Source: an uncultured virus (IMG/VR IMGVR_UViG_3300025803_002109)
Lineage: Duplodnaviria > Heunggongvirae > Uroviricota > Caudoviricetes
Length of the DNA: 64,000 nt
Direction: 5' to 3' (one strand)
Virus record (IMG/VR): IMGVR_UViG_3300025803_002109
Shown here: positions 17,541-60,785 of the stretch, in pieces
Layout of the letters: every line of letters starts with the position of its first letter
Numbering within the stretch: position 1 is the first letter of the stretch
Made by a program: the position numbers and the translations under genes
The notes under the pieces: model-generated
What the model saw: only the letters and a program-made list of their open reading frames with translations
What the model was told of the DNA's origin: nothing
Databases searched by the model: none

Positions 17541-17557
17541 GAGGAAGTAAGGAGGGT
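17541..17557 (+). repeat. 17-bp element GAGGAAGTAAGGAGGGT, copy 1 of 4
   Basis: Exact copies at 17541, 29304, 47206, 60708. Confidence 0.9.
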
Positions 17558-17590
17558 TTTGAAGCCATAGGCTTTAAAGAAGAATATAAA

Positions 17591-17800
17591 GGCGGACCGG
17601 GAATGTGGGATTACACACTCCAAATGGCGCAAGGCTCTCCGTTGCATCTTTGCCATTACTGCTCACCCGGATTTTAACCGGCGATTCTCTCCACTTGGCC
17701 GTCATCGGAGGGTCTGTTTCCCTCGTCTATTGCATACCTTAACCTCACCTAATCGGTTTATTCAGTCACGGTCCTCGCCCACAGTCTTAAGTTGTGGGCT
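17591..17800 (-). ncRNA. Structured ncRNA of about 210 nt, manA-motif-like
   Basis: Own TTAAATAG box (17830-17823, - strand); 5' hairpin GCCCACA/TGTGGGC; GGACCG pairs with 3' CGGTCC; T-rich tail; GTGACTGAATAAAC...GGTTAAGGT and AGTAATG segments recall manA RNAs (from memory). Confidence 0.65.
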
Positions 17801-17920
17801 AATCTTGACTTATGGTGATGACCTATTTAATAGTATGCTTGTTACTAAGTGTTATCTTGCCGACTTCATAATAAGTTAATCATTATATAGTCGGTCGGGA
17901 AATCTACTGAATACCTAAAG

Positions 17921-18154
17921 GTGAATATAATGATAGATGCTGTAATTGATTTTGCTATGAACCCAAAAATACTAGCCGGAACTATGTTCCTTCTTGGTCT
18001 ACACCAGTTTGACTTCCAGAAGGATATCCCAGTGATAGGATTCTTTAGCCGAAGTAACTTCGGTGATATGGATCTTTTTATGGGAATAACCCCGCTAAAG
18101 GCTTTGGGGGCTATTGCTCTTATTGACGGATTCTTATTGCTTCGATCTCTATAA
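17921..18154 (+). CDS. Small membrane protein
   Basis: Two hydrophobic segments; AGGTGA Shine-Dalgarno suggests a start a few codons in. Confidence 0.7.
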   Translation: MNIMIDAVIDFAMNPKILAGTMFLLGLHQFDFQKDIPVIGFFSRSNFGDMDLFMGITPLKALGAIALIDGFLLLRSL

Positions 18155-18198
18155 ATAGAGAATTGAATTGATAGTTTCTGTAATGAAGGTGAATAACC

Positions 18199-18375
18199 AT
18201 GAATGCTTTGGAATTTGAAACAACTTGTTCGAGACTCTCGGATAATGTTGCGGAGGGCGTATTGCTTACTGATTCCTTGAAAGCCGCTACTTCTGCACAG
18301 CATAACTGTCTAACTCGTATTCACGCCGTATTGATGAAGTGGGGGTCGTCAAACGATGTCCAACCGAAAGAGTAG
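18199..18375 (+). CDS. 58-aa hypothetical protein (not in ORF track)
   Basis: AGGTGA Shine-Dalgarno; MNALEFETTCSRLSDNVAEG...QPKE. Confidence 0.55.
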   Translation: MNALEFETTCSRLSDNVAEGVLLTDSLKAATSAQHNCLTRIHAVLMKWGSSNDVQPKE

Positions 18376-18691
18376 GACTTCTGACGATGATGTTGCACAA
18401 GAGTTCGTGCAAGATCTTTTAGAATTAGTTACCCAGTCGATCGTGGCTAATGAACATACCAATGCCGCCATTATTCGTTTACAAGAACAACAAAAAGTTA
18501 CTGCAGACGATCTCAAACAATTATTAACTTTAGTTCGAGATGGCAATGGTCGCCCACCTTTAATTTCTCGTTTAGAAGCATTAGAGCGAACTGAACAAGA
18601 TATTCAAAAGAAAAACGCTATGTCTTGGGAAATCCTTTTGGTTGCTTTACCAGGGATCCTAGCATTTTTATCTACTATGGGTGCTATGTAG
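18356..18691 (+). CDS. Coiled-coil protein with C-terminal TM (tail-anchored)
   Basis: GNGRPPLISRLEALER then WEILLVALPGILAFLSTMGAM-stop. Confidence 0.75.
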   Translation: MSNRKSRTSDDDVAQEFVQDLLELVTQSIVANEHTNAAIIRLQEQQKVTADDLKQLLTLVRDGNGRPPLISRLEALERTEQDIQKKNAMSWEILLVALPGILAFLSTMGAM

Positions 18692-18747
18692 GTCTTGAAT
18701 ACATTTAGACATCTATATCATCATTCTTATGATGTGAAAGATCATGG

Positions 18748-18924
18748 CTAATAAAAATATGCCGACAAGAAAAATATTGTAGAGTGCAACGAAGTTAGCA
18801 TTAAGGTAGTCCATACTTCTTCATAATATGCGGAAGCCACTTCTGCTAAATGCAAAGTTCCGTAAATTACTAATCCAAATTGGGCTAATCTTCCTATGCT
18901 ATTACGAATGTTGAATTTACTCAT
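18748..18924 (-). CDS. Small membrane protein
   Basis: GGAG Shine-Dalgarno before ATG at 18924; two hydrophobic helices. Confidence 0.6.
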   Translation of the reverse strand: MSKFNIRNSIGRLAQFGLVIYGTLHLAEVASAYYEEVWTTLMLTSLHSTIFFLSAYFY

Positions 18925-18926
18925 CT

Positions 18927-19205: not shown

Positions 19206-19290
19206 GATACTGTTAGATCATGCTTCCTATATAACCTTTCCGGTCTTGAATACAGGAACCTTCATATAGTAAGCCTCCACAATATATACT

Positions 19291-19608: not shown

Positions 19609-19617
19609 AGTGATAAT

Positions 19618-19947: not shown

Positions 19948-19994
19948 TAATTTTAATGTGAAGCATTAAATAGCAATTCGATATAGTTCATTAT

Positions 19995-20987: not shown

Positions 20988-21028
20988 CTATTTATAGGTA
21001 ATAACAGCAGAAACACTAATAGAGTGCT

Positions 21029-21650: not shown

Positions 21651-23288
<1,638 letters not shown>

Positions 23289-27644: not shown

Positions 27645-27758
27645 GGCCTGAAGGTAAGCAATTACCAATGAGGAGTTAAAGACACACTTCTTGCTTTTTC
27701 GTGTTTCTTCCTCGTAGGGTGGCCTCCGATGCAATAACATCGGCAACTCCTCCCCTAC
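27645..27758 (+). ncRNA. Candidate structured ncRNA of about 115 nt
   Basis: TTAAATAA at 27615 predicts a start at G27645; stems GGTAA/TTACC, GAGGAG/TTCCTC (or GAGGAGTT/AACTCCTC), GACAC/GTGTT, CCGATG/CATCGG, GTAGGG/CCCTAC; no ORF. Confidence 0.5.
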
Positions 27759-27760
27759 AT

Positions 27761-27794
27761 TTAAATTAAATTAAATTAAATTAAATTAAATTAA
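27761..27794. repeat. (TTAAA)n pentanucleotide tandem repeat
   Basis: Six full units plus TTAA; shorter AATTA tracts follow several other genes. Confidence 0.9.
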
Positions 27795-27847
27795 TCTGCA
27801 ATTCAGATGTATTAAATACTAAGACTTATTAAAGTAATCCATCAAGG

Positions 27848-29092
27848 TTGACTATTACTATGGCCTCACTAATTTTATTTACTGGAAAAGGAGGAGTGGG
27901 TAAAACCACCGTATCTTCTGCTACTGCCTTACACTATGCTAGTCTTGGAAAGAAAACAATTTTAATTTCTACCGATCCTGCTCATAGCACAGACGATACA
28001 TTAGGAGTTACATTAGGTTCGGATAAAATTGTGCCCGTTGCCCCCAATTTTTGGGCTAAAAATATTAATTCCGAAGCCGCCGCATCTAGATTTGCCGAAA
28101 CTCTGAAACAAGGTATGGAAAAACTTTTTGGAAATTCTATTCCTGGCTTTGATCCTGAAATCTTTTCTGACATGGCTACCTTTCCAGGAATGGATGAATA
28201 TTTTGCCTTAGATGAAATTCTAAAGTTAGTGCAATCCACTGATTATGATATCGTAGTTTTCGATACGGCTCCTACTGGACACACTTTGAAAGCCTTGAAT
28301 GCTCCCGCTGCAATTAGAACATTTATTTTGCGTATTCTTCGAATGCGAGCCAAGATTGAATCTATCAAAGGAATTTTTAAGGCTCGAGATAATACCGTTC
28401 CAGAACTAATAAATAATTTGGAACAAATTTGTGAAAAGGTAGAGAGATTAACTTATATTTTAAGAAATCCCGAGTTTGTATCCGTAAACTTAGTTAGCAT
28501 ACCTACGGAATCCGGATATCAAGAGTGTGCCCGAACTATAAACTTTTTAGAAAGAATGAATATTCCCATAAATAATATAGTAGTCAACAATGTCATGCCT
28601 AACTTTGGAAAATCAGAATGGGAAGCCGCTAACGAACACCCTAGTATTCAATTAGTTAAAAGACATTATGATTCTCAACAACCTCACTTATCCAACTTCA
28701 AAAAGTTGTGCCAAGAACATCAATTAAAATTAGTAGGAATGAGTTTGTTACCTTTCGAACCACGAGCGGAAAAATTAAAAGATTATGCAGACATACTTTT
28801 TAGATCACCATCTAACGGAGGCTTCGACTGGAATCCGAAGCCTATTTTTGATGGCGATAGTTCGGAAGATCTAGTTCGCATGAATTTACCCTACATCGGA
28901 AAACTCGAAAAATCAGATTGGAAAAATTTAGGTTCTGATGGAACTAGTCCTGGATATTCATTTGGTAGTTTTCAATTCGGAAACACTTGGGACGGTATCT
29001 ATCGAATAGATGAAAGTATTTTGGATCCAAATGCTACGTATATTAAAAGAAAAACTGGAGAACACACAGTTACCTTTAGTAAAGTAAATTAA
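27848..29092 (+). CDS. ArsA/Get3 (TRC40)-family ATPase, single domain, with probable C-terminal alpha-crystallin-like domain
   Basis: GKGGVGKTT, STDPAHS, PGMDE, FDTAPTGHT, VVNN; helical insert after DTAPTGH; C-terminal extension of about 85 aa; start probably ATG 27860. Confidence 0.9.
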   Translation: MTITMASLILFTGKGGVGKTTVSSATALHYASLGKKTILISTDPAHSTDDTLGVTLGSDKIVPVAPNFWAKNINSEAAASRFAETLKQGMEKLFGNSIPGFDPEIFSDMATFPGMDEYFALDEILKLVQSTDYDIVVFDTAPTGHTLKALNAPAAIRTFILRILRMRAKIESIKGIFKARDNTVPELINNLEQICEKVERLTYILRNPEFVSVNLVSIPTESGYQECARTINFLERMNIPINNIVVNNVMPNFGKSEWEAANEHPSIQLVKRHYDSQQPHLSNFKKLCQEHQLKLVGMSLLPFEPRAEKLKDYADILFRSPSNGGFDWNPKPIFDGDSSEDLVRMNLPYIGKLEKSDWKNLGSDGTSPGYSFGSFQFGNTWDGIYRIDESILDPNATYIKRKTGEHTVTFSKVN

Positions 29093-29303
29093 ATTATATT
29101 AAATTGGAAAATAAATTTAATTAGTTCAGATACTGATGACGATGATGCCGATGATGCTGATGATGCCGATGGATTAATTCTCCATAATACTTATATAGGT
29201 AATCCCAGTCTACTAGAATCAGTGAAAGTGGTGCACTCACGAACTTCCCCATCCCGCACCAATTAAATTAAATTAAACCCAATTCTACGCCCTCATTATA
29301 ACT

Positions 29304-29320
29304 GAGGAAGTAAGGAGGGT
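29304..29320 (+). repeat. 17-bp element GAGGAAGTAAGGAGGGT, copy 2 of 4
   Basis: Exact match; intergenic. Confidence 0.9.
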
Positions 29321-29338
29321 CTTTGAGCCTACGGAGAT

Positions 29339-29512
29339 ATGATTATGGAAACTGATACTCTATTATTAATTGTGGCTGCACTGGGAACTATTCAAGCAAT
29401 TCATGGATTGGGGTTTCTATATGTTTTACGTTGGATGCTCTGGAGAAATCAACAGTTGACATTATTATTGACAGAATATTATAGTAAAATAAAACCTGAA
29501 AAGGAAGACTAA
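29339..29512 (+). CDS. 57-aa membrane protein (not in ORF track)
   Basis: MIMETDTLLLIVAALGTIQAIHGLGFLYVLRW...; GGAG upstream. Confidence 0.55.
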   Translation: MIMETDTLLLIVAALGTIQAIHGLGFLYVLRWMLWRNQQLTLLLTEYYSKIKPEKED

Positions 29513-29543
29513 TATTATATAGTCGTGATATTTAATAATAAAT

Positions 29544-30110
29544 ATGACTTTCGGACATGATGTTTTTCAGAGAGGATTTGCTGCGGAAGTTTTGTTTCGT
29601 GCATCAGACGATCACGCAGAAATATCTTATCGATCACACAGTAAAAATACAATTGGAGGTAAAGTAGTTTGTAAAGAACTTACTAGTCCTTATAATGTAA
29701 CCTATTCTTCTGGAGGTTCAAAGTCTGGAATGAAGGCACAAAATTACAGAACATTAGAGGATGCAAAGACTGCTGCCGAGAAATATGACTTAACAGGAAA
29801 ATGGGTCTATCTAGGTGATTTATCTCCATCTTTGGATGACTGTAGTAATGATGTCGAAAAAACATGCCCAGAGGGACAAGTTCGTAAATTTAATACTGCG
29901 ACTGATACCTGGGAATGTGCTCCCGTAGAAAATGGTGATGATGTTATGGGATGCATGGATTCTGATGCAAATAACTACGACTCAAAAGCGACTGTAGATG
30001 ACGGCTCTTGTAAGTATGATGAAACTGGTGGAGATGATGAAGAAGGCAGTAATCTAAATACTATATTCTTAGTGGCTGCTGTAGCCGTAATAGGCTCTAT
30101 GTTTATCTAA
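29544..30110 (+). CDS. Tail-anchored protein with GCMD...NY...DDGSC module
   Basis: TTATATAG at 29515; GCMDSDANNYDSKATVDDGSCKY; C-terminal IFLVAAVAVIGSMFI. Confidence 0.8.
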   Translation: MTFGHDVFQRGFAAEVLFRASDDHAEISYRSHSKNTIGGKVVCKELTSPYNVTYSSGGSKSGMKAQNYRTLEDAKTAAEKYDLTGKWVYLGDLSPSLDDCSNDVEKTCPEGQVRKFNTATDTWECAPVENGDDVMGCMDSDANNYDSKATVDDGSCKYDETGGDDEEGSNLNTIFLVAAVAVIGSMFI

Positions 30111-36016: not shown

Positions 36017-36081
36017 TCAATTAATGAAGATACTATCCTTTAAGGACAACCTTCATATAGTAGTTCACAGAACTTCATTGT

Positions 36082-44570: not shown

Positions 44571-47141
44571 ATGGGTTATGAAGATAATGCTTTCAATACC
44601 AAAGAAGGAAAAGATATTTTGAAACAAAATTTTAGATTAGTTTTTGCTCCCTCAAGAAAGGATCCAACTCAGATAGAAAGCAAAGATTTACAAACAATTA
44701 CTAAACATTTCGTATCAAATACCAAACAGATCATAAATAATATTAAAAGATTTGCTAAAGGTTATACTCCTATCAAACCTTCGGATGCTTATGAAAGTGG
44801 TATTTATGTTTGCCCTCATTGTCAACGCCGAGATTGGATGTGGCTTTGGGAGTATAAAGATTTAGGATACTGGGATCAAAATTCAATTTCTACTGGAAAT
44901 CTAAATTTTAATTTAACTTCTGGATTTAGTAAAAAAGATTATAGATCAAATACATTCCCTTCTATCGCTCACGTAACCTGCAATACTGTAAATTATTGTC
45001 CAGAGTGTAGCATTACTAGTTTAGACTCAACAGTTTGCCCTAATTGCAGTGGAGATACTAAGAAAGTAGGTTGTGGTAAAGATTCATATGCAATTCACTA
45101 TACCCCTCCAATAACTGCCTCCACTTATGGGGCTACTCAAATAACTGCAACTAACAATTCTACCCATAAATATGTAGAGAAAAATATTTCAGAAACCTCA
45201 CAACAAATCAAATATCAATCAGGAATTAGAACTGCTTTTGAGTATCAAAAAGAGTCAGTAGCCCCTAGGGAGTTCACAAACGATTCTACTAGTTCAAATA
45301 TTTATTCTAGTGATTATCCTAATTTTGAACAAAAAAGAGTAGGAATTCCTAGTTTAGTAGTTGGATATTCTTCCAGTTCATTAATTAAAACCAATGATAA
45401 TGGGACTATGGGGAAGCCGTTAGTTGAAAGATATCCTATTTCACCTATGCGTATGTTGATTTCAAACCCTCCAGCGAGATATAAATGTAATCATAGAGAT
45501 CATTGGATTTTCGGAAAAGATGGAGGTTGGTATAGTAGTTCTGCATATGCGATTACTTCTCGTAGTCTAGGTGAATCTTATTGGTGTGATACCGTAGATC
45601 CAGAAACTGGAAGACAACATGGAAATAGATATACTCAAAAGGATTTAAGTTTTGGTCGTTCAGATTTGTTAAATTGCCGAATTACTAGTCCTAATCCATT
45701 ACCAGAGGATGCAATCCAAGGGAGAACTTTTGGTGGAAAGCCAATTTATCGTATAACTCTACAGTATGAAAGCAATGTTAATTATCGTGGTAGCGACTCA
45801 ACAAACCTTACTGATGATAGTAATTGGTCTACACCATTTTCTAGCACGGTGCAAAAGTCTCTTTATTTGCCTATGGTTTTTAGTTTAATGGAAATCCCAC
45901 AGAATGTAACTGAAGTAGATATGAATCCTGGCGGGCGAGAACCTTGCCCCAACGATCCAGCAATAGAAGAAATTGTGGGATCTTTCAAAGCCGACTTGAC
46001 AGCCCAAGAAGAATTGCCACCAGAAACTAGAATTGATAAAACTTTAACCGTAGAAAAACTAATTGATGAAGGCCGTCAAGATGTAGTAGATATTTTAAAT
46101 CAATATGCTAGAGGATTTATTAATGATGAAATTTCTCCTTTACTACTAGAAAATACTAGTAACCGAGGCATTCTTTTGAACAAAAAATATCGTGGCTGGG
46201 TTGATTTATCAGATCCAATCGAAAACGCCGGTGGATTTACAGTTCCTCGTAAATTATTCTTAAATAATAAAGTAGACAAAGCCAAGACTTGGTTAAAAGA
46301 TTATTGCCGAAATACTTTATTTAATAATGATATCGCTCCATCTGGGAAAATAATTTTTGGTAATTTTGGATGGGTTGCTTCAGCACGGAATAGACGAAGC
46401 CATACTAGCCAAATACGTTCCCGAACTGATGACCGAGTATTACACAAACCTAATTATACATGGCTGACTTCTACTCGACATATCGAACCTAATATTATTC
46501 CGTTAATCGTAGGAACTAATAGTAGTATTACTACTTCTCAATCTCCTTGGAGTGCGGAGTTTAAGCGAAAATTAAAAGGCACTAAAGTTGCCGGATCTAC
46601 TACACCGATGAAACCCTATATAACTAGTTCTCCTAGTTCATTCTTACCTCTCACTTTATTGGCTTACACTAGTTTACCAGTGGCCGGAATAGGTGGAACT
46701 GTCTCCAAAGCAATAGATACTGAAATTAAAGATCTTAATATGCTACACTATGTCGCCACCGGTCTAAGTTATGTAGATGATGAAATGATGACTAGTTATA
46801 CCATTATGCGTTGTGAAACTTGTAATGAAATTGTGGACTCTGGAGGAGTCCTACCTTATCGCATTGGCCGAGGAGAAGTAGATGCTGCTGGAAAAGTCAC
46901 CGGAATTAATAGGAACTTGACTCAAGAATACTTTGATATCGAACAGGCTCACGAAACTAATGGGGGCGGTAAATACAAACCATATGTTAGTCAGTCTGGT
47001 GCGAATATTTGTCCAGCGTGGGGAATCGATGAACCGGCAGCCAATAAATATGGTAAAGAAATGTTACTAGGTGGTGTAACTGGACAGGATGCTTCTAAAT
47101 CACTCACTATTAGCGTCAGGAAAGAAAAGGACACTAAATAG
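44571..47141 (+). CDS. Large multi-Zn-ribbon protein
   Basis: CPHC, CPEC, CPNC, GCG, CNH..H, CETC; GGAGG Shine-Dalgarno. Confidence 0.8.
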   Translation: MGYEDNAFNTKEGKDILKQNFRLVFAPSRKDPTQIESKDLQTITKHFVSNTKQIINNIKRFAKGYTPIKPSDAYESGIYVCPHCQRRDWMWLWEYKDLGYWDQNSISTGNLNFNLTSGFSKKDYRSNTFPSIAHVTCNTVNYCPECSITSLDSTVCPNCSGDTKKVGCGKDSYAIHYTPPITASTYGATQITATNNSTHKYVEKNISETSQQIKYQSGIRTAFEYQKESVAPREFTNDSTSSNIYSSDYPNFEQKRVGIPSLVVGYSSSSLIKTNDNGTMGKPLVERYPISPMRMLISNPPARYKCNHRDHWIFGKDGGWYSSSAYAITSRSLGESYWCDTVDPETGRQHGNRYTQKDLSFGRSDLLNCRITSPNPLPEDAIQGRTFGGKPIYRITLQYESNVNYRGSDSTNLTDDSNWSTPFSSTVQKSLYLPMVFSLMEIPQNVTEVDMNPGGREPCPNDPAIEEIVGSFKADLTAQEELPPETRIDKTLTVEKLIDEGRQDVVDILNQYARGFINDEISPLLLENTSNRGILLNKKYRGWVDLSDPIENAGGFTVPRKLFLNNKVDKAKTWLKDYCRNTLFNNDIAPSGKIIFGNFGWVASARNRRSHTSQIRSRTDDRVLHKPNYTWLTSTRHIEPNIIPLIVGTNSSITTSQSPWSAEFKRKLKGTKVAGSTTPMKPYITSSPSSFLPLTLLAYTSLPVAGIGGTVSKAIDTEIKDLNMLHYVATGLSYVDDEMMTSYTIMRCETCNEIVDSGGVLPYRIGRGEVDAAGKVTGINRNLTQEYFDIEQAHETNGGGKYKPYVSQSGANICPAWGIDEPAANKYGKEMLLGGVTGQDASKSLTISVRKEKDTK

Positions 47142-47205
47142 CATAAGTTAATATAGCAGACAGAATAAAGTAAAACTATTAAATTAAATTAAATAAATTA
47201 AAATT

Positions 47206-47222
47206 GAGGAAGTAAGGAGGGT
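47206..47222 (+). repeat. 17-bp element GAGGAAGTAAGGAGGGT, copy 3 of 4
   Basis: Exact match; here it also provides a Shine-Dalgarno for the vWA gene. Confidence 0.9.
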
Positions 47223-47230
47223 CTTTAAGT

Positions 47231-48313
47231 ATGGGAGGAACATTTGAGCAAACCGCAATTGTTACTAAAGATCCCTATGCGTGGTTGTCTGAATCTCCGA
47301 TAGAGGCAGATCCCGCCGATTATCCTGAATTTGAAAATCCATTGGAAGTTGTAGTTCGTTCATTAAATCAGATGATATTTCCTTCACCTAAGAAAATTAA
47401 ATTTCCTGAAGAACCAACTGGTCGAAAATCTTGGATGCCAGGTATTGATCCAGAATCTAGAGTAATTCCTGAGACTATTGTTCCTGGAATTCTAGAAGGC
47501 AATCCTCTACAAAGAGTTATGCAATATACTCCTTCAGGAGATCCGACAGAAGGTGAAGCCACCTTCATTAATTTTATTTGTGATTGTTCAGGTTCGATGA
47601 GCCGATCAGATATGGGTTTGTTGCCTAATGGAGATCAATGTGCCCGTTGGGAAATGGCTAGGATTATTTGTTCTAGCATTTTAGAAGTTGCTAAAACAGA
47701 AGAACACTATTTCCAAGTAATAGGATATGATACTTCTGCCTGGGATATTTGGGAAGGTCCTTCTAATGATTACGATGCGGCTCTAGATTATATTTTAAGA
47801 TTTAATGCTGATGAATCCTCCGACACTGGAGCCCAGGCTCCATTCTTTCCAAGAGGTGGCACTGCTGCCGGAACAGGAATGGCTAGAGCATTGGAAAACA
47901 TGGAAAAGTTTGTAGTAGGAGGTAAATGGAAGGTTAAAAATTGTTATACTTTCGTTATTTCAGATGAGGATCTGTCATTTGGTGAGGCTAACAATAAGTC
48001 TAACCGCACAGTTGGTTATTGGGATGAAAAGTTACGGGCTTATGGTCCAGTTTTCTATGCCTTTACTACTCAAGTTCTTCCCGATGGATCCGTAAATGAA
48101 AAAGTTTCTGGACAAATGGTTAGAGCAATTAAATCCTTAAAAGAGCAATTAGACAATCATTATGCCGGTAGATATAAAGTAAGCGATTGTTCGACAAGTT
48201 TTGGATTATTTTATGATCCGATTACTAAGAAGACGATTGGAGGGGGAACTTTTATAGAAGTTTGTCAAGGAAGGTCTAATGTAGCCTGTGAAGGAGCATT
48301 TAGTGACAAATAA
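47231..48313 (+). CDS. von Willebrand factor A (vWA) domain protein
   Basis: MIDAS FICDCSGSM, GGT...GMARAL, FVISD. Confidence 0.85.
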   Translation: MGGTFEQTAIVTKDPYAWLSESPIEADPADYPEFENPLEVVVRSLNQMIFPSPKKIKFPEEPTGRKSWMPGIDPESRVIPETIVPGILEGNPLQRVMQYTPSGDPTEGEATFINFICDCSGSMSRSDMGLLPNGDQCARWEMARIICSSILEVAKTEEHYFQVIGYDTSAWDIWEGPSNDYDAALDYILRFNADESSDTGAQAPFFPRGGTAAGTGMARALENMEKFVVGGKWKVKNCYTFVISDEDLSFGEANNKSNRTVGYWDEKLRAYGPVFYAFTTQVLPDGSVNEKVSGQMVRAIKSLKEQLDNHYAGRYKVSDCSTSFGLFYDPITKKTIGGGTFIEVCQGRSNVACEGAFSDK

Positions 48314-48389: not shown

Positions 48390-49646
48390 ATGTCTGACAT
48401 TACTCTGGGCGACCACATTAAATTTCCGGCTTACGGAGAAAAATCTGTATCTTCGCAAGTTGTTTTCGTTACTGGTAAGAGAGGTTCCGGAAAATCTTAT
48501 ACCGCTGGTGTGATGATGGAAGAATTTGATAAGGCTCAGTTACAATTCGTTTGTTTCGATGTTTTGTCTGCCCATGCCGGTATGGATGCATTACCTAATG
48601 TAGAATCTATCCGTCCTCGAGAAGATGAAACTATTGATATGAATTTATTAGTCTCTAAGATCGCTACCGGAAATAAATCTTTAATTATAGATATTGGAGG
48701 ATGCACATTACCTAAGCAACAACTTTTAATTGCTGATTATTGTGAGGCTCTAATTGATGCCAAAATTGGCCATAACCATAATAAAACTTTAATGACTATT
48801 ATTGAAGAATGTCAGGATTTCGTGCCCCAACAAGGACGGCCAGTTTCATTTTCACCAATTGTTAGACTTTGTAAGTTAGGTCGTGGATTAGGTTATGGTT
48901 GCACTTTGATTACTCAGCGACCTGCAGCCTGTAACAAAGAAGCCTTATCACAAGCGGCAGTATATCTAACGCATAATGTGATAAATAGCCGTGATCTCAA
49001 GGCTTTGGAAGAACAGTTGTCATTTGGAACTGATCGAGAAAGAGTAAAAAGAATTCTACAAGGTGTCAATGCGGCTCAAAAAGGAGAAGTCGTAGCCTAT
49101 GCTCCCGAATATTTCCGAGAAACAGGATACATTCGTATTGGTAAAATCCGTGGCGACCGCCGAGTTAAACATACTGGTGGTAACATTTCCGCTTCGCCAT
49201 TAACCAGTAATAATTCTGAATCTTTTGCTGGAACTAGTTCTCCTTCTGGAGAAATGATTGGAGACTATAGTAATTCATCCAATAATATTTCTTTTGCCGA
49301 AACTAGTTCTCCTACAGGTCTAGTTACTTTAGAACCTATTAGCAGTTTAGGAGGGGCTGGTGCAGCCTCCTCTTTGTTAACTAGTAATATGGGATTCAAA
49401 CCTTTAGATCCCTATGCGGCCTCTGAAATGGGTGGCGATAGATATCTTACCGACATGGATTTAGATTCTTCTCGAGAAGAAATTTTGACTTGGGATCCTC
49501 CAGTAACCTATGAGGGTCTTGAAGACATGAACTCTGATACATTTCTATCAGAGGAAACCAAAACATCTTTTATTAAAGGTCCTATTTGGGGCTTTGGTGT
49601 CGCAGTAATGATTGCTTCGGGTGCATATTTCGTAGTAAAGAAATGA
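48390..49646 (+). CDS. HerA/FtsK-superfamily ATPase (DUF87-like) with C-terminal TM anchor
   Basis: VTGKRGSGKSY, CFD, IIEECQDFVP, GRGLG...ITQRPA; Ser-rich linker; IWGFGVAVMIASGAYFVVKK-stop. Confidence 0.85.
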   Translation: MSDITLGDHIKFPAYGEKSVSSQVVFVTGKRGSGKSYTAGVMMEEFDKAQLQFVCFDVLSAHAGMDALPNVESIRPREDETIDMNLLVSKIATGNKSLIIDIGGCTLPKQQLLIADYCEALIDAKIGHNHNKTLMTIIEECQDFVPQQGRPVSFSPIVRLCKLGRGLGYGCTLITQRPAACNKEALSQAAVYLTHNVINSRDLKALEEQLSFGTDRERVKRILQGVNAAQKGEVVAYAPEYFRETGYIRIGKIRGDRRVKHTGGNISASPLTSNNSESFAGTSSPSGEMIGDYSNSSNNISFAETSSPTGLVTLEPISSLGGAGAASSLLTSNMGFKPLDPYAASEMGGDRYLTDMDLDSSREEILTWDPPVTYEGLEDMNSDTFLSEETKTSFIKGPIWGFGVAVMIASGAYFVVKK

Positions 49647-49675: not shown

Positions 49676-50599
49676 ATGAGTTTACCAGTTGCTTTTCAAG
49701 CCGGAGACTTAGTTATTATTCCAGAGGGTGAATATATTGACATCTGCGTCACGCATGAAGATAATCTAACTTCAACGCACACAGTTAAAATCAAAGACTA
49801 TCTTAATATGTCAAATATCTTTTTTCGAAGGAAATATAATCTTCCCAAAAATTATGATCGGTCGATTAATAATAGTAGAATATTATCCAGAGGTGTAGAG
49901 TTAGTTCAACTAATTAGTCCCGTAGAAAAGGGTAAGGGTCAATTAATATATGAAGCCGGAGATTGGCTAGTGAGGTCTTTACCCATAGAACATCAAACAT
50001 TATCGGAAGGAGTTAGTTATAGTTTAAATAAGTATCCAATTAAAAAATTAACTCCTACAAAAAAGTGGATCAAAGTTGTCGCCAAACCATTAGTATGGCC
50101 TTATCAAGCATTTGAAAGATGGTATCCAATTAGTGATATTTTCTTTACTAGGATTCCAAGATTAGTCCCCTATGTAGAATTGTATCGGCCTATGAATAAT
50201 TGGGATAAGAATACTTTTGTTTGGTGGGAGGTATACAATACATCTGATTTTAAAAATGGTTATTTTATTCCAAATTTAGAATACTTAGAAGATATCATCT
50301 TTCTTCCTTTCGCTGTTCAAATGGATAGTGACGATAATAAAAAATTAAAAAATTCTAAGGGACCTGGTTGGTTAGTAAAAATAAAAAAAGATAAATGGTG
50401 TAAAGAAATTGGATCCGGCAGAACTCATTTTCAAAATGAAAATTATTTACATATAGATACGTATCAAGAAAACGGCTTTGATTATTTTTATGTCCCTTTG
50501 ACACAAATTTCTATTAGTTTCCACTGTCCAGTTACCTTTGATGAATCTTTATCAGTCTTAGGAAATGGAATCCCCTGTGAAATACAACCTATTAAATAG
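49676..50599 (+). CDS. Hypothetical protein
   Basis: TTATATAG at 49647, 29 nt before ATG. Confidence 0.75.
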   Translation: MSLPVAFQAGDLVIIPEGEYIDICVTHEDNLTSTHTVKIKDYLNMSNIFFRRKYNLPKNYDRSINNSRILSRGVELVQLISPVEKGKGQLIYEAGDWLVRSLPIEHQTLSEGVSYSLNKYPIKKLTPTKKWIKVVAKPLVWPYQAFERWYPISDIFFTRIPRLVPYVELYRPMNNWDKNTFVWWEVYNTSDFKNGYFIPNLEYLEDIIFLPFAVQMDSDDNKKLKNSKGPGWLVKIKKDKWCKEIGSGRTHFQNENYLHIDTYQENGFDYFYVPLTQISISFHCPVTFDESLSVLGNGIPCEIQPIK

Positions 50600-50620
50600 T
50601 CGTGCAGTAAATGTTCTACC

Positions 50621-51571
50621 ATGCGTATCATTGATAGAAATTCCATGATAAGGAATCTACCTAATACTCCAAAGATTGCAGCACTGCCTTCAGTGAACAT
50701 AGTTAGAGATTCACTTCCTGCCCACAATGCTGAAGCCCAAGGATTAGTTGCCGCCGGTCCAAGACCTGCACCTCCTGTGCTACCTAATATGCCCTCTCTA
50801 AATATTCCATCTCCTAATAGTTATTCATTGGCAGACTTTGCTGCTGGTAGAGGAGCCGGACAAGGTGTTGTTCCTAATACGCCTTTGCCAGCCACTCCTA
50901 ATGCTCCAAAAGCAATGAGATTAAAGTTAGACGCTGATTATGCTCGCCGTGATCAAGATCTTTCAAGATATAATTTGAAATCTTCTAACTGGACTCCATC
51001 CGCTCAGTATTCTAGACCATCTCACACAATGGAGATTTATGGTGTCGGTCGATCAGTAGATATTTCTGGTATGAACCGCATGAAAGCAGAATCTTTTATG
51101 AGTAATGTCAATATTCACGGTCCATCACACAATTTCGGTGGAGATCCAAGATTTGAAGCACAACACGCTGCTGTTAGACCTACTGCTGCACAATTAAGTC
51201 CAAACCACGCTCTACGTTCTCAAAAGGATCTTCGAATGACTGAATTCATGAGAGCCAATAGTGGTCCTGCCGCAACTATTTCTGGATTCGATAGAACTGG
51301 AATAGCAAAGAGAATGATGGCAGAATCTACACCAAAAAGAATTCCACTTCAAAATTTACCAGTTCGCCCAGCGGCTAACTTACCTAGTGCCCCTAGAGTT
51401 ACACATTTAATACCTAAGTCTCATGGAGTAAAATTAGAAGCAAATTACATTGCACCTCCAATTCGTGGTGCAGATCTTGGTGGAAAGTTTAGTTCTATGT
51501 CTTCAGTATCTGGAAATATAGGAGTTCATCCTGGTCGTGCTTTCGGTGCTGACGCACATCTATTCCGCTAA
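50621..51571 (+). CDS. Basic Pro/Ala/Arg-rich disordered protein with xAE motifs
   Basis: TTAAATAG at 50592; HNAE, MKAE, MMAE, FGAD. Confidence 0.8.
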   Translation: MRIIDRNSMIRNLPNTPKIAALPSVNIVRDSLPAHNAEAQGLVAAGPRPAPPVLPNMPSLNIPSPNSYSLADFAAGRGAGQGVVPNTPLPATPNAPKAMRLKLDADYARRDQDLSRYNLKSSNWTPSAQYSRPSHTMEIYGVGRSVDISGMNRMKAESFMSNVNIHGPSHNFGGDPRFEAQHAAVRPTAAQLSPNHALRSQKDLRMTEFMRANSGPAATISGFDRTGIAKRMMAESTPKRIPLQNLPVRPAANLPSAPRVTHLIPKSHGVKLEANYIAPPIRGADLGGKFSSMSSVSGNIGVHPGRAFGADAHLFR

Positions 51572-56637: not shown

Positions 56638-56690
56638 TTTAATTCCTAAGTTATTAAGTAGTCGTGAACAGTTAGTTTTAACTGATTATT

Positions 56691-57994: not shown

Positions 57995-58060
57995 TTTAAC
58001 GTAGAATTTAATAACGTTTATAGAGAAGGTTTTAAATATCAGAGGGATAGAATATCAAGT

Positions 58061-58426
58061 ATGAGATTCACGTATGGCAGTTTAGTTGCTAGTTTTATAC
58101 TAGGAGCATTCAGTATGCAAATGTTCGGAAACAAAATAATGTCTAAGGCTGCCGAAGTAGTTACTTCGGAACCCCTTATGACTAGAAACATGACCCCGGC
58201 TGACTATGAATCAGCCTATGTAGAATCTTCAGGCACTACTGCAGACATAGTTCCAGTATCACTTTCTCAATCTTTCGTAGGTTCATACTTAGGTAAACAA
58301 GTTATGGATTTACAAAACACTACTCGCACTTTCAATGATAGTCTGACTGCTGGACCTATTACGGATGTGGAAGCCTTTTATGAAAATCCTTTCGTAACCG
58401 ATCCCTTCCGAGGTGGAAATCAATGA
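58061..58426 (+). CDS. N-anchored protein
   Basis: TTAAATAT at 58032; N-terminal hydrophobic helix. Confidence 0.75.
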   Translation: MRFTYGSLVASFILGAFSMQMFGNKIMSKAAEVVTSEPLMTRNMTPADYESAYVESSGTTADIVPVSLSQSFVGSYLGKQVMDLQNTTRTFNDSLTAGPITDVEAFYENPFVTDPFRGGNQ

Positions 58427-59115
58427 GTGAAAGTTTGTTGCCCACTGGAAAAACTTCATTATCTGATCTTTTAATTTATGGAGGTGGAGCCGTAATTTTA
58501 GGGGCTTTGGCTCTTAAAACTATGAGAGATAAAAATGTATTCGGTGCGAGTTCAGCGGCTGCTTACAGTGGTGGAGGTTATTCTGCATTACCTATGAATG
58601 AAGGTGGTGGATTTTACAAAACAATTACTAACACCCCTAACATGGACAGCCATGCTACTCAATATTCTATGGGTCCAGAATCTACCGGATTAGATCAATC
58701 CGCACCTTCTACCTTACTTCGTTCAGACTATGTAGAACCTTCTACTCCTGTTCAAGTAGATCCATTTAATGGATACGTTCCTCGACTTCCAGTAAATGCA
58801 GTTCGCCCTATGATTCCAGTTATTTCAGGAATTGGTGCTAACGCTATGGTATTATCTGCTGAAGGTAGTCAAGGTCGTTCTCGATCTGGCGACAATCAAG
58901 CCAATTCTACGGATGACTCCGGAGTATTAAATGGCCGTTTTGGTCGCCCTGCCTTAGTTCCTGGAACTAATGAAGGTTATTTAGATATGGCTACTGGTAT
59001 GACTAAGACTATGGATGAATGGCGAAGATCATATAGTTTATCTAGAATGAGTGATACCTTAGTTAGAGGTATGCCTATGTCTGGTGGTATTCCAGTTATG
59101 TTACGCCGAGTATAG
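58423..59115 (+). CDS. N-anchored Gly/Ser/Pro-rich protein
   Basis: LLIYGGGAVILGALAL; LSAE; ATGA overlap. Confidence 0.8.
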   Translation: MSESLLPTGKTSLSDLLIYGGGAVILGALALKTMRDKNVFGASSAAAYSGGGYSALPMNEGGGFYKTITNTPNMDSHATQYSMGPESTGLDQSAPSTLLRSDYVEPSTPVQVDPFNGYVPRLPVNAVRPMIPVISGIGANAMVLSAEGSQGRSRSGDNQANSTDDSGVLNGRFGRPALVPGTNEGYLDMATGMTKTMDEWRRSYSLSRMSDTLVRGMPMSGGIPVMLRRV

Positions 59116-59197
59116 ATTGTAATTAAATGTAATTAAATTTAATTAAATTAATTGCTGTGCCCGAAACATTAAGTATCTGTTCTCAACTACTATTACT

Positions 59198-60709
59198 ATG
59201 GCTAATCTTTTAGTAGTATATGATGCCTACTACGCTACTGATTGGAAAAAATTAGTATCTCCTCGTTCTCCAAGTATATGGTCGGGCGAAGAAGTCGCCC
59301 CGGAATTAATGCAGAGGCTAATGTCTGGCGAAGACTTAACTGTTGAAGAACTAATGAAGTTGTCCGGTGCTACTGATGAGTTATCCGGATTATCTACTAC
59401 TCTAGACAAAATTATTGAAGATTTCGGAGTTCCTCTTTCCTGGAACGATGAAGATGACTTTGGAAAGTTTTTATCCGATATTCAAAACAAAGAAAGTTTT
59501 AGGAAAGAAATCCAAAATAAATTATCTTCTGCCGAACCGGCTGCTTGTTTTGCTATGACTGGAGAAGTTTATCGAGCCGTAGAATCTGCTGGTGACCCTA
59601 ACAAAATATTAAAATATTTTAGACCTTTAATTCTTTCTTGGAATGATCAGGATCCCGAGGCTAATTTATTTAATAATACGGTTCAGTATAAAACTAATTT
59701 TATTTCTGGAAATCTAATTCAAGATCCATATTACAAACTAAATTTTAAATTAGTGGCCATTAACTCAGCAGAAGCAGAAAAAAATTCTATGTCTGAAGAT
59801 GATGCCTGGTTTGCTAAGAATTTTCCAACTAAAGAAAATACCCCTATTGATCCCGAATTTATTTTTGGTAATCTCCCGAATCCTTTATTTTTCAATTCCA
59901 TAGATTCCAGATCTGCTTTAAACACTCCTATTCCCATACTAGAAATTCCTGAATTAACAGATATCTCTTGGCTGTCCACTCCTGGAAATAACTTTCAGAT
60001 GATTTGTCAAAAAGTTATGGATATTCAAGTAAAAAATCTAGAGGCTATGCAAGACTCTAAAGAAGTAGATGCCGATATAGTTTATGCTCCAATTAAATAT
60101 TTAATTAATTTACCTCTACAAGAGTTAGAATATATTTCTAACTTAGAAGTTCTAGAAAAACATAATATATTTACTGATGATGAGTCCGGATTTAATGAGC
60201 AAAAGATTCCGCAAAGTATGGAACAATATCTGACTAGTCAGTGGGCCGGAAAAGATCCCAATATGGTTATCAAGAATACTCAATCTATTTGGGTAAGTCT
60301 TTCTGGAGTTAGAGGTCCCGTAAACTATGTTCTGGGCTTAGAAATTTTAGGAAAGTTTTTGGCTGCTGGTGTTACTGATCCAGTAGAGATTTCTGAATCC
60401 TCTCAAATAGACTCCGAAAATGTTCCGGTGTCTTGGCCAGCAAACAAAACTAGTGACTGGGAATGGGAATCACAGCAAGTTTTTCGATATTTGAATGAAA
60501 ACTTTAATCCAGAAGGAAAAGAAACCGGAGTAGCCCCTAACAGATCCTTCAAAGATTATGTTAAATTAGTCCATTCTGCAGAGTCTGGAGATGAAAAATC
60601 TATTACTAAAATCCAAGATATTATTTCTGATATCTCGGAAATATTGGCAATCCTGCAATCCGAACCAAAAAATCAAAATTTGGTATCTCTAGACGTTTAC
60701 GATTACTGA
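59198..60709 (+). CDS. Hypothetical acidic protein
   Basis: 503 aa; TTAAGTAT at 59169, 29 nt before ATG. Confidence 0.8.
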   Translation: MANLLVVYDAYYATDWKKLVSPRSPSIWSGEEVAPELMQRLMSGEDLTVEELMKLSGATDELSGLSTTLDKIIEDFGVPLSWNDEDDFGKFLSDIQNKESFRKEIQNKLSSAEPAACFAMTGEVYRAVESAGDPNKILKYFRPLILSWNDQDPEANLFNNTVQYKTNFISGNLIQDPYYKLNFKLVAINSAEAEKNSMSEDDAWFAKNFPTKENTPIDPEFIFGNLPNPLFFNSIDSRSALNTPIPILEIPELTDISWLSTPGNNFQMICQKVMDIQVKNLEAMQDSKEVDADIVYAPIKYLINLPLQELEYISNLEVLEKHNIFTDDESGFNEQKIPQSMEQYLTSQWAGKDPNMVIKNTQSIWVSLSGVRGPVNYVLGLEILGKFLAAGVTDPVEISESSQIDSENVPVSWPANKTSDWEWESQQVFRYLNENFNPEGKETGVAPNRSFKDYVKLVHSAESGDEKSITKIQDIISDISEILAILQSEPKNQNLVSLDVYDY

Positions 60710-60724
60710 GGAAGTAAGGAGGGT
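60708..60724 (+). repeat. 17-bp element GAGGAAGTAAGGAGGGT, copy 4 of 4
   Basis: Exact match, overlaps the upstream TGA; continues into CTTGAACCCA. Confidence 0.9.
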
Positions 60725-60785
60725 CTTGAACCCATAAAGGGTTGTTTAGTAATCAATCTTAAATAGTCGTGTAGAGAATATGTAA

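What the first reader, a model, noticed from the sequence alone, without database searches (positions are those of the whole stretch)
17541..60734. Four identical 17-bp purine-rich elements fused to a variant of the 13-mer, 12-18 kb apart
Seen: GAGGAAGTAAGGAGGGT is exact at 17541, 29304, 47206 and 60708, always at gene boundaries on the + strand. Its final GGT continues as a degenerate 13-mer (GGTTTTGAAGCCA, GGTCTTTGAGCCT, GGTCTTTAAGTAT, GGTCTTGAACCCA). Only the copy at 47206 is positioned as a ribosome-binding site, so Shine-Dalgarno function does not explain it. Inference: a second, rarer tier of the same code (bipartite site for two proteins, or loading site versus spreading site). The AAGGAGGG end loosely resembles the polar KOPS (GGGNAGGG) and SRS (GAGAAGGG) translocase signals.
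Basis: partly seen in the sequence, partly recalled or inferred. Interest (0 to 1): 0.7.

Follow-up and report, generated by a model that had tools for sequence, protein, structure and literature searches.

The report
Conserved ribosome-site cassette of uncultured viruses
The four identical 17-base words are the core of a 26-base signal that a whole group of uncultured aquatic viruses keeps letter for letter between genes, built around a perfect ribosome-binding site, so it most likely steers gene expression and is not a DNA-transport signal.

Summary
GAGGAAGTAAGGAGGGT occurs exactly four times, all on the + strand, with no copy at 1-3 mismatches.

It is the core of a 26-nt unit, AYT-[17-mer]-YTTKRA. 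More than 120 metagenome loci carry it unchanged, including lineages whose neighbouring protein is only about 56% identical. It is absent above chance level from 185,579 prokaryote genomes.

It holds the only four TAAGGAGG words in the window. It usually lies within 7 nt of, or over, the stop codon of the preceding gene (33 of 52 contexts).

- In 69 of 120 metagenome copies an ATG follows exactly 8 or 9 nt later.
- Most of the rest, including window copies 17541 and 60708, are followed at once by a hairpin whose third pair takes all four Watson-Crick forms.
- Copy 29304 is followed by a second GGAG and an ATG 24 nt on.

Best reading (about 0.5): an expression cassette read in the mRNA, like the unexplained start-associated sequences of mycobacteriophages. 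The conservation goes beyond what a ribosome-binding site needs, which implies a further, virus-specific reader.

The KOPS/SRS translocase idea is not supported. The link to the 13-mer family is real.

The parts
17541..17557 (+). 17-mer copy 1 (left flank CCA instead of the usual AYT). It lies 55 nt after the stop of ORF 17075-17485.
17558..17578 (+). Hairpin directly after copy 1: TTTGAAGCC / ATA / GGCTTTAAA. The 5' arm is the 13-mer-like flank.
   Evidence: MFE structure; the same hairpin occurs in relatives with loops ATA, TCC and TCT.
29301..29326 (+). Copy 2 with conserved flanks (ACT + 17-mer + CTTTGA). No hairpin.
29333..29347 (+). Second, ordinary Shine-Dalgarno GGAG (29333-29336), then 8 nt, then the ATG at 29345. 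This starts a small membrane ORF (to 29512). The ATG at 29339 is not kept in relatives.
   Evidence: relatives L121 and L180 read gcgattATG and gcaattATG.
47203..47233 (+). Copy 3 with flanks (ATT + 17-mer + CTTTAA), 2 more nt, then the ATG at 47231. This is the ribosome-binding-site position for the vWA-domain gene 47231-48313.
   Evidence: vWA fold.
60705..60730 (+). Copy 4 with flanks (ACT + 17-mer + CTTGAA). The T at -1 plus GA of the 17-mer forms the TGA stop (60707-60709) of ORF 59198-60709.
60729..60743 (+). Hairpin after copy 4: AACCC / ATAAA / GGGTT. In relatives it is replaced by AATCC(AT)...(AT)GGATT, a compensatory change.
60759..60791 (+). TATA-like promoter motif TTAAATAGTCGTG. 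The T of its TAG lies 25 nt before the ATG at 60789 of the next gene.
47174..47205 (+). AT-rich (AAATT)n run directly upstream of copy 3. Similar runs occur at 27756-27805, 29260-29284 and 59113-59152.
   Evidence: families D5, D6

Best explanation
The 17-mer is the core of a 26-nt expression cassette, AYT-GAGGAAGTAAGGAGGGT-YTTKRA, that works in the mRNA of a group of uncultured aquatic viruses.

Its centre is a perfect, extended Shine-Dalgarno sequence (UAAGGAGG). It is placed right behind, or over, the stop codon of the preceding gene, so a ribosome (30S or terminating 70S) is captured there.

- Where an AUG follows 8-9 nt later, the cassette is the ribosome-binding site of the next cistron. 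This is window copy 47206, the fifth copy of the same record, and 69 of 120 metagenome copies.
- Where a hairpin follows instead (17541, 60708), or a second SD plus AUG at +24 (29304), the cassette is a non-initiating ribosome-docking site. It sits at the end of a cistron, upstream of the next promoter or the next SD.
- For these copies I propose an RNA-end or stability role, in the manner of STAB-SD.

The 18 conserved positions outside the 8-nt SD word imply an extra sequence-specific reader. That could be a viral protein or RNA that treats the five or so sites per record as one regulon.

Shown: position, strand, exact conservation, stop/start geometry, covarying hairpin.
Inferred: ribosome binding, action at the RNA level, the extra reader, the role of the hairpin copies.
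For: - **Perfect SD.** TAAGGAGG occurs 4 times on + and 0 times on -, only inside the four copies. AAGGAGG occurs 10:0.
- **Fixed start distance.** An ATG follows exactly 8 nt (52 copies) or 9 nt (17 copies) after the 17-mer in 69 of 120 metagenome copies, that is 43 of 82 distinct contexts.
- **Tie to stop codons.** In 33 of 52 distinct contexts with at least 400 nt upstream, the preceding long ORF ends inside the element (T|GA 13, internal TAA 5) or 4-7 nt before it (15).
- **Internal genes use SD.** Other non-first genes of the window use GGAGG, GGTGA or GAGG 6-10 nt before their starts. At least 14 genes instead carry a TATA-like motif with its TAG 24-25 nt before the ATG and mostly no SD.
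- **Cassette belongs to the position, not the gene.** In L156 a 37-codon ORF sits between the cassette and the P5C-reductase-like gene. In L174 the cassette abuts that gene directly.
- **Deep conservation.** The same 17-mer precedes vWA genes only 56-57% identical to the window's, with unrelated upstream flanks.
- **Virus-private.** In GTDB genomes the 20-mer has 4 hits and the 17-mer 47, all single and scattered across taxa.
- **Transcribed through (weak).** A 1,488-nt contig from an RNA library spans 46478-47965, across copy 3. DNA carry-over cannot be excluded.
- **Precedents.** SAS of Cluster K mycobacteriophages (PMC3203893, passages read) and STAB-SD (PMC4113751, passages read).
Against: - 26 conserved positions with no 1-3-mismatch copies far exceed what rRNA pairing needs. 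The other SDs in this window are degenerate.
- GGAGG lies 10-11 nt from the ATG in the cassette, against mostly 6-8 nt for other genes.
- 3 of the 4 window copies and 51 of 120 metagenome copies have no start codon at +8/+9.
- A hairpin starting 0-4 nt after the SD should hinder, not help, a ribosome settling there.
- No start codon is brought close by the hairpin (checked by eye on the sequences).
- The host, and hence its 16S 3' end, is unknown, so no pairing could be tested.
- The right flank belongs to a 13-mer family that also lies inside genes in two reading frames. Translation initiation cannot explain that.
Confidence: 0.5

Rival explanations
1. A site that creates RNA 5' ends: a promoter for virus-specific transcription machinery, or a cleavage site for a sequence-specific RNase. 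On this reading the RNA would begin near GGAGGG. The message would then start with its Shine-Dalgarno and carry either an AUG at a fixed distance or a stabilising 5' hairpin. This would resemble T7 class III promoters, a comparison made from memory.
For: - High information content and all-or-none exactness over 26 nt.
- One orientation only, 2-5 copies per record, 11.6-19 kb apart.
- The fixed distance to the ATG and the hairpin directly after the element both fit a fixed transcript start.
- In one hairpin class, a normal SD (GGTGA) and ATG follow the hairpin (L098, L122).
- In 5 ATG-type contexts an ordinary TATA-type motif has its TAG T 13 nt before the 17-mer. By the window's 24-25-nt rule, that would also place a start at about G11-G12 of the 17-mer.
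Against: - No RNA polymerase domain was found in 78 window ORFs (Pfam). The large unknown proteins gave nothing in PDB sequence or Atlas searches. However, at least 36 kb of the record was not seen.
- A perfect 8-nt SD inside a promoter would be a coincidence.
- An RNA-library contig runs through copy 3.
- Upstream context is not uniform: coding sequence in some classes, AT-rich runs in others.
Confidence: 0.18
2. An operator on double-stranded DNA for a virus-encoded regulator, turning about five junctions per genome into one regulon. This is comparable to what the authors proposed for the extended start-associated sequences. Another parallel is the one-orientation 13-bp stoperators of phage L5, known here from memory and from a passing mention in PMC3203893.
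For: - Exactness and asymmetry.
- The element is conserved while the neighbouring genes vary.
- In ATG-type copies the element spans -28 to -3 relative to the ATG. That is the stretch taken up in ordinary promoters of this window by the TATA-like motif and its spacer.
Against: - The covarying hairpin and the tie to stop and start codons point to a single-stranded, translated molecule.
- No candidate regulator was identified. There is only a weak HTH hit, in ORF 11602-11895.
Confidence: 0.12
3. A nut-like antitermination or Nus-type RNA signal. The 13-mer-like flank would act like boxA and the hairpin like boxB. Copies next to start codons would regulate translation, as BoxA does at suhB.
For: - GGTCTTTAAG and GGTCTTGAAGA match 9 of 11 positions of the gamma-proteobacterial BoxA consensus GYTCTTTAANA given in PMC5725501 (passages read).
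- A linear element plus a covarying hairpin, just behind a stop codon, resembles lambda nutR (recalled).
- A transcription array longer than 64 kb on a single strand would profit from antitermination.
Against: - The consensus itself occurs 0 times in the window.
- The resemblance is short and AT-rich.
- The promoter architecture (TATA-like motif 24-25 nt before leaderless starts) suggests an archaeal-type host, which would lack NusB (recalled).
- It does not explain why the 17-mer itself is invariant.
Confidence: 0.06
4. A polar signal on the DNA: for a translocase (KOPS/SRS-like), for packaging, for strand-specific nicking or for priming.
For: - Strict one-strand orientation of both the 17-mer and the 13-mer core. 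The core count is 16 to 0 with the GG prefix in the window and 71 to 0 in relatives' loci.
- Spacing of 11.6-19 kb.
- An HerA/FtsK-like ATPase gene at 48390-49646.
Against: - All genes run the same way, so strand bias cannot separate a DNA signal from an RNA signal.
- No KOPS or SRS word lies inside the 17-mer.
- Codon-level placement and the covarying hairpin have no role in such signals.
Confidence: 0.04
5. A recombination cassette at module borders, like the promoter-stem-loop repeats (PeSL) of T4-type phages (recalled). It would be kept because it mediates gene shuffling.
For: - A different gene follows the same cassette in close relatives (L156 versus L174).
- An insertion of about 340 nt lies right after the copy-1 hairpin in the window but not in L137.
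Against: - In 1,225 locus pairs, none was homologous only upstream. The 10 pairs homologous only downstream are explained by a fast-evolving upstream gene.
- A 17-26-nt identity is short for homologous recombination.
- It does not explain the SD or the fixed ATG distance.
Confidence: 0.05

Closest known systems
Start-associated sequences (SAS) and extended SAS of Cluster K mycobacteriophages (Pope et al. 2011, PMC3203893; passages read)
   Same: A short asymmetric repeat in one orientation that contains an SD core and sits a few nt before ATG starts. It has well-conserved positions that cannot pair with 16S rRNA. The upstream stop codon is sometimes inside it. It is conserved across subclusters in front of unrelated genes and absent from host genomes. 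Its function is unknown.
   Different: The sequence is unrelated (GGGATAGGAGCCC). SAS has 11-19 copies per roughly 60-kb genome; here there are 5 in a 100.8-kb record. SAS lies 3-7 nt from the start; here 8-9 nt. Almost all SAS copies are at starts; here 51 of 120 copies are not, and most of those carry a covarying hairpin downstream. ESAS inverted repeats lie upstream and do not covary. Here the unit is longer (26 nt) and invariant.
STAB-SD of Bacillus thuringiensis cry3A mRNA (reviewed in PMC4113751; passages read)
   Same: A perfect SD-like word in an untranslated region that does not start translation. It is thought to bind a 30S subunit.
   Different: STAB-SD lies in a 5' leader and blocks RNase J1. 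Here the non-initiating copies lie behind a stop codon and before a hairpin. No stability data exist here and the host is unknown.
Ordinary Shine-Dalgarno ribosome-binding site
   Same: The UAAGGAGG core, with the start codon downstream in 69 of 120 copies.
   Different: Ordinary sites are degenerate and 4-9 nt long. Here 26 nt are conserved, there are no near-copies, and 3 of the 4 window copies lack a start codon at the right distance.
Lambda nut sites / BoxA (consensus GYTCTTTAANA from PMC5725501; passages read)
   Same: A linear conserved RNA word followed by a hairpin just after a stop codon. BoxA next to an SD can regulate translation (suhB).
   Different: There is no exact BoxA consensus in the window. 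The 17-mer has no counterpart in nut sites. Dependence on Nus factors is untested.
T7-type phage RNA polymerase promoters (recalled, not looked up)
   Same: Invariant asymmetric sites of about 23 bp, in one orientation, at gene borders. The initially transcribed sequence is purine-rich, and some are followed by a 5' stem-loop.
   Different: No polymerase gene was found in the window. The element contains a full SD.
KOPS (GGGNAGGG) and SRS (GAGAAGGG) translocase guides
   Same: G-rich and strand-polar.
   Different: Neither word is present in the 17-mer. Those signals are 8-mers spread without regard to codons, whereas this element is locked to stop and start codons.

Membership tests
Start-associated sequences (SAS-like class; analogy, not homology) | Short asymmetric repeat with several copies per genome, essentially in one orientation | tested here: met
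   4 copies in the window, all on +, and a fifth in the same record. In 11 records with 2-5 listed copies, all copies in a record lie on one strand.
Start-associated sequences (SAS-like class; analogy, not homology) | Located a few nt upstream of the start codon of the downstream gene | tested here: inconclusive
   1 of 4 window copies, and 69 of 120 metagenome copies, have an ATG at +8/+9. 51 of 120 do not.
Start-associated sequences (SAS-like class; analogy, not homology) | Contains an SD core plus conserved positions beyond what rRNA pairing needs | tested here: met
   TAAGGAGG core. Conserved positions -3 to -1 and +4 to +6, none of them fixed by the search pattern, in 74 contexts. Whether the 17-mer's own non-SD positions can vary in relatives was not tested, because the search required them. 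Pairing to the host rRNA could not be tested because the host is unknown.
Start-associated sequences (SAS-like class; analogy, not homology) | Not used by cellular genomes | tested here: met
   The 20-mer has 4 hits and the 17-mer 47 single hits in GTDB species genomes, scattered over taxa. I estimate this is about the chance level for that amount of DNA.
Start-associated sequences (SAS-like class; analogy, not homology) | Sequence related to GGGATAGGAGCCC | tested here: not met
   Different sequence (direct comparison with the passage). So this is an analogue, not a member of the Cluster K family.
Plain Shine-Dalgarno site | 5-10 nt upstream of a start codon | tested here: not met
   Holds for 47206 only. 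17541 and 60708 are followed by hairpins. 29304 lies 24 nt before the ATG, which has its own GGAG.
KOPS / SRS translocase signals | Presence of GGGNAGGG or GAGAAGGG | tested here: not met
KOPS / SRS translocase signals | Orientation follows replication or segregation, not gene direction | not testable with these tools
   All genes of the window and of the loci run the same way as the element. No whole genome is held.
STAB-SD-type mRNA stabiliser | Perfect SD in an untranslated region that does not initiate translation | tested here: met
   Copies 17541, 29304 and 60708.
STAB-SD-type mRNA stabiliser | Raises mRNA stability through 30S binding | not testable with these tools
   Needs half-life measurements and toeprinting.
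Lambda nut / BoxA | BoxA consensus GYTCTTTAANA | tested here: not met
   0 matches on either strand of the window. The best resemblance is 9 of 11.
Phage RNA polymerase promoter | Virus encodes its own RNA polymerase | tested here: inconclusive
   No RNA polymerase family among 78 window ORFs. The rest of the genome was not available.

The most novel reading that the evidence does not exclude
The 26-mer is a private address read by a dedicated viral factor that creates RNA 5' ends inside it, either as a virus-specific promoter or as a processing site. Every marked unit would then start with GGAGGG, its own ribosome-binding site. What follows is either an AUG at a fixed distance or a protective 5' hairpin. 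The 13-mer family, sharing its right half, would be a second tier of the same RNA-level code along a single-strand gene array longer than 100 kb. If the host is archaeal, as the TATA-like leaderless promoters suggest, this would be the first virus-specific transcription or processing signal class seen in an archaeal virus.
Probability: 0.13. Interest if true: 0.8.

Novelty: new variant of a known kind. Interest (0 to 1): 0.5.

Why it matters
Start-associated repeats of phages have had no explanation since 2011. This example is unusually sharp. It spans 26 nt, and the 17-nt core has no near-copies in the window. More than 120 metagenome loci hold exact copies, in lineages down to about 56% protein identity.

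It also comes in two forms. One is followed by a start codon at a fixed distance. The other is followed by a hairpin that covaries. These two forms give a natural experiment for separating ribosome binding from recognition by a second factor.

It also shows that the neighbouring 13-mer code is conserved on one strand only, even inside genes. That is a separate open question about how very long one-strand viral gene arrays are expressed.

Tried and rejected
- **Whole genome.** None is held. The records behind the metagenome loci cannot be searched whole. Orientation relative to oppositely oriented genes, and a complete copy count, were therefore impossible.
- **Known RNAs.** No tRNA and no Rfam family at gathering score.
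- **Known phages.** No DNA or protein match in INPHARED.
- **IMG/VR.** The 17-mer has 3 unrelated hits. GGTCTTGAATACATG has 79 single hits, none clustered. There are no relatives of the vWA protein.
- **GTDB genomes.** No relative of the vWA protein.
- **Distant relative G001.** This 160-kb record has inverted terminal repeats, an ATPase 53% identical and a vWA protein 25% identical. It has neither the 17-mer (up to 3 mismatches) nor the 13-mer family, and has a plain GGAGG before its vWA gene.
- **Unbiased sampling.** Sampling orthologous junctions without bias was not possible. All relatives were found with the exact 20-mer, so the share of relatives that lost the element is unknown.
- **Antisense partner.** No complement of 11 nt or more to the cassette exists in the window. 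The best RNA duplex (-25.9 kcal/mol, at 17601-17680) lies within the range of 20 shuffled cassettes (-20.8 to -28.7).
- **Recombination hot spot.** Not supported.
- **Hairpin bringing the SD close to a start codon** (as in T4 genes 38 and 25, recalled). No start codon follows the hairpins (by eye).
- **RNA libraries.** Only assembled contigs were available. No starts, ends or joints appear at the sites. Parts without cover say nothing.
- **Large unknown proteins.** The 856, 966, 1003 and 1404 aa proteins gave nothing in PDB sequence search, and the 856 and 1003 aa proteins nothing in the ESM Atlas.
- **Host domain.** NCBIfam hits are mixed: weak Hef and HerA, weak PolI-type 5' nuclease.
- **Literature.** The 12-mer GAAGTAAGGAGG occurs in only 2 unrelated papers (listing only). 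The magrovirus paper PMC5434244 has 0 occurrences of 'promoter', 'motif', 'Shine', 'repeat' or 'TATA'. I did not establish whether this virus is a magrovirus.

Full report
**1.

GAGGAAGTAAGGAGGGT is exact at 17541, 29304, 47206 and 60708, all on the + strand. There is no other match at up to 2 mismatches on either strand, and 0.01 matches are expected by chance. A wider scan finds no copy with 1-3 mismatches, so the word is all-or-none.

The four copies also hold the only four TAAGGAGG words of the window. AAGGAGG occurs 10 times on + and never on -.

All four lie at gene borders:
- 17541 is 55 nt behind ORF 17075-17485.
- 29304 is 24 nt before the conserved ATG at 29345.
- 47206 ends 8 nt before the ATG at 47231.
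- 60708 overlaps the TGA stop of ORF 59198-60709.

**2. What the window is**

The window is 37% G+C, and the predicted genes run on the + strand. About 80% of them have no family match.

Recognisable genes are a B12-dependent ribonucleotide reductase, an ATP-dependent ligase, a 5' nuclease, an ERCC4 nuclease, a T4-endoV-like glycosylase and a GET3/ArsA-like ATPase. There is also a weakly terminase- or HerA-like ATPase.

The gene behind copy 47206 is a vWA-domain protein, not a capsid protein. No whole genome is held. INPHARED has nothing similar.

A notable feature is a TATA-like motif (TTAAATAGT, TATATAGK, TAAGTAGT). The T of its TAG lies 24-25 nt before 14 start codons, and 24-27 nt before 16, mostly without any SD. 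Genes inside operons carry GGAGG, GGTGA or GAGG instead.

I read this as archaeal-type leaderless promoters. That is an inference, and the protein hits do not settle the host.

**3. Relatives**

- Eleven records hold 2-5 listed copies, always on one strand, with neighbouring copies 11.6-19 kb apart.
- By identical spacing, the window belongs to the record behind L135, L138, L142, L156 and L162. That record has a fifth copy (L156) 19,080 nt upstream of 17541.
- In 185,579 prokaryote species genomes the 20-mer has 4 hits and the 17-mer 47 single, scattered hits. I estimate this to be about the chance level for that amount of DNA.
- In IMG/VR the 17-mer has 3 unrelated hits.
- A distant relative (G001; ATPase 53% and vWA 25% identical) lacks the element. 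It has a plain GGAGG before its vWA gene.

So the element is private to one clade, and it is old within that clade. It precedes vWA genes only 56-57% identical to the window's, with unrelated flanks.

One caveat applies throughout: all relatives were found through the exact word, so the rate of loss is unknown.

**4. True extent**

In 74 distinct contexts, positions not fixed by the search are also conserved:

| Position | Base (count of 74) |
|---|---|
| -3 | A (67) |
| -2 | C (54) or T (16) |
| -1 | T (70) |
| +4 | G (48) or T (26) |
| +5 | A (58) or G (16) |
| +6 | A (74) |

The unit is therefore AYT-[17-mer]-YTTKRA, 26 nt in all.

**5. Two forms**

Of the 120 copies, 52 have an ATG exactly 8 nt after the 17-mer and 17 have one at 9 nt. 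That is 43 of 82 distinct contexts.

The genes served are varied:
- the vWA protein;
- 31-37-codon membrane peptides;
- a 150-aa protein of no known family;
- a P5C-reductase-like protein.

In L156 a 37-codon ORF sits between the cassette and the reductase-like gene, which the cassette abuts directly in L174. So the cassette belongs to the position, not to the gene.

The other 51 copies fall into 26 distinct 32-nt contexts: 3 unrelated, 3 of the 29304 type and 20 with a hairpin.
- In 18 of these 20, the arm AAxCy at +5 to +9 pairs 5 of 5 with a downstream arm.
- The third pair takes all four Watson-Crick forms: A-T 8, G-C 4, T-A 4, C-G 2.
- The fifth pair takes two forms: C-G 14, T-A 4.
- None of the 32 ATG-type contexts pairs 5 of 5.

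Window copies 17541 and 60708 are of the hairpin type. The 29304 type looks like a hairpin copy whose 3' arm has become GGAG, the SD of the ATG 24 nt downstream.

**6. Relation to codons and promoters**

In 52 distinct contexts with enough upstream sequence, the preceding long ORF ends as follows:

| Where the ORF ends | Contexts |
|---|---|
| At T\|GA formed with the first two bases of the 17-mer | 13 |
| At the TAA inside the 17-mer | 5 |
| 4-7 nt before the 17-mer | 15 |
| 17-58 nt before the 17-mer | 10 |
| No long ORF ends nearby | 9 |

Ten of the 13 T|GA cases are hairpin copies.

Behind hairpin copies, a TATA-type promoter follows 40-69 nt after the 17-mer in 14 of 31 non-ATG contexts. 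In one class a GGTGA SD and an ATG follow instead.

The hairpin form therefore closes a cistron, and often a transcription unit.

**7. The 13-mer link**

The right flank overlaps the family GGTCTTGAAKACA.
- In the window the core GTCTTGAA occurs 16 times on +, always preceded by G. It occurs twice on -, without that prefix.
- In relatives' loci GGTCTTGAA occurs 71 times forward and 0 times reverse in 307,779 nt. This count includes the copies joined to the 17-mer.

By my reading:
- its TGA is the true stop of the genes ending at 2504, 27107 and 43312, and a TAA variant is the stop at 11541;
- it runs straight into the ATG at 8192, 24207, 43317 and 53982;
- in-gene copies lie in two reading frames;
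- the copy inside the reductase gene keeps its letters in five variant contexts.

So the 13-mer is a nucleotide-level signal of its own, and translation initiation alone cannot explain it. Two start-linked 13-mers (8180, 53970) have upstream halves that look like decayed 17-mers (by eye). This suggests a continuum.

**8. Mechanism**

I favour (about 0.5) an RNA-level cassette that captures a ribosome just behind a stop codon. It acts as the ribosome-binding site when an AUG follows. When a hairpin follows, it acts as a non-initiating docking and RNA-end element, in the manner of STAB-SD.

The weaknesses are real:
- conservation exceeds what an SD needs;
- the GGAGG-to-ATG distance is 10-11 nt, against mostly 6-8 nt elsewhere in the window;
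- a hairpin right after an SD should hinder ribosome binding.

Hence I infer a second, virus-specific reader.

Rivals:
- a promoter or processing site that makes 5' ends inside the element (0.18);
- a duplex-DNA operator (0.12);
- a nut/BoxA-like signal (0.06; 9 of 11 matches to GYTCTTTAANA, but no exact match);
- a recombination cassette (0.05; argues against);
- a polar DNA signal (0.04).

An RNA-library contig runs across copy 47206. This is weak evidence, because DNA carry-over cannot be excluded.

**9. Comparison with known systems**

The closest known class is the start-associated sequences of Cluster K mycobacteriophages. They show the same logic, and their function is equally unknown.

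This is an analogue, not a member. The sequence is unrelated, copies are fewer, and the unit is longer. A large subclass is not at starts and carries a covarying hairpin.

Earlier notes of this scan describe similar start-linked repeats in other viruses. One of them proposed a complementary small RNA. I found no such complement in this window.

**10. Verdict**

The feature is real and strongly conserved. It is a new variant of a known but unexplained kind.

Noticed in passing
window, e.g. 50592-50623, 62428-62459, 29515-29546, 36054-36084: A TATA-like motif (TTAAATAGT, TATATAGK, TAAGTAGT, often followed by CG) has its TAG exactly 24-25 nt before 14 start codons, and 24-27 nt before 16. Most of these starts have no Shine-Dalgarno. 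This looks like archaeal-type leaderless promoters. The distant relative G001 has a related top k-mer, AATCTTTAAGTAGTCGT (20 or more copies, strand-biased).
   Followed up: partly
window 2497, 6158, 8180, 8947, 11533, 14719, 18691, 19242, 21106, 24195, 27100, 31095, 35325, 40232, 43305, 49515, 53970: The 13-mer family GGTCTTGAAKACA occurs on the + strand only. Its TGA or TAA is the real stop of 4 genes, and it runs into the ATG of 4 genes. Several copies lie about 25 nt before the TAG of a promoter motif (19242, 27100). Others lie inside genes in two reading frames. It is conserved in relatives (71 forward, 0 reverse). It resembles one-orientation stoperators or BoxA-type RNA signals. Its function is open.
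   Followed up: partly
window 17585-17880: A GC-rich insert of about 300-340 nt lies between the copy-1 hairpin and the next promoter (TTATATAGT at 17883). It is present in L132, L136 and L162 but absent in L117 and L137. It has a weak full-length match on the minus strand to the manA RNA family: 21.3 bits against a gathering score of 55.2, E = 0.002 for this 451-nt search. The fold z-scores are only -1.3 and -1.7. It may be a structured RNA or a small mobile insert.
   Followed up: partly
window 4500-4539, 27756-27805, 29081-29105, 29260-29284, 47174-47213, 59113-59152: AT-rich (AAATT)n runs lie in the longer intergenic regions. Several are directly upstream of 17-mer copies (29304, 47206) or of gene 59198.
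   Followed up: no
window 21651-23288: A 545-aa ORF has a long Gly/Gln-rich stretch built of 12- and 18-nt repeats (22138-22650) and bacterial thrombospondin type 3 calcium-binding repeats. It is probably a surface or fibre protein.
   Followed up: no
window 39098-43312 and 47231-48313: A 1404-aa protein with an AAA lid domain lies a few genes upstream of the vWA/MIDAS protein. This may be a MoxR-type ATPase and vWA pair in a virus.
   Followed up: no
L156 2885-2995 (-), L099 3027-3119, L151 3027-3119, L113 2897-2995 (-), window 29345-29512: Many ATG-type cassettes serve tiny ORFs of 31-55 codons. Each has one hydrophobic helix, and the 31-37-codon ones shown end in a basic tail. The next gene follows with an ordinary SD.
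   Followed up: no
G001 (L088-L095): The distant relative is a 160-kb record that IMG/VR classes as having inverted terminal repeats. Most of its promoter-like motifs lie on one strand (CTTTAAGTA 38 versus 8).
   Followed up: no
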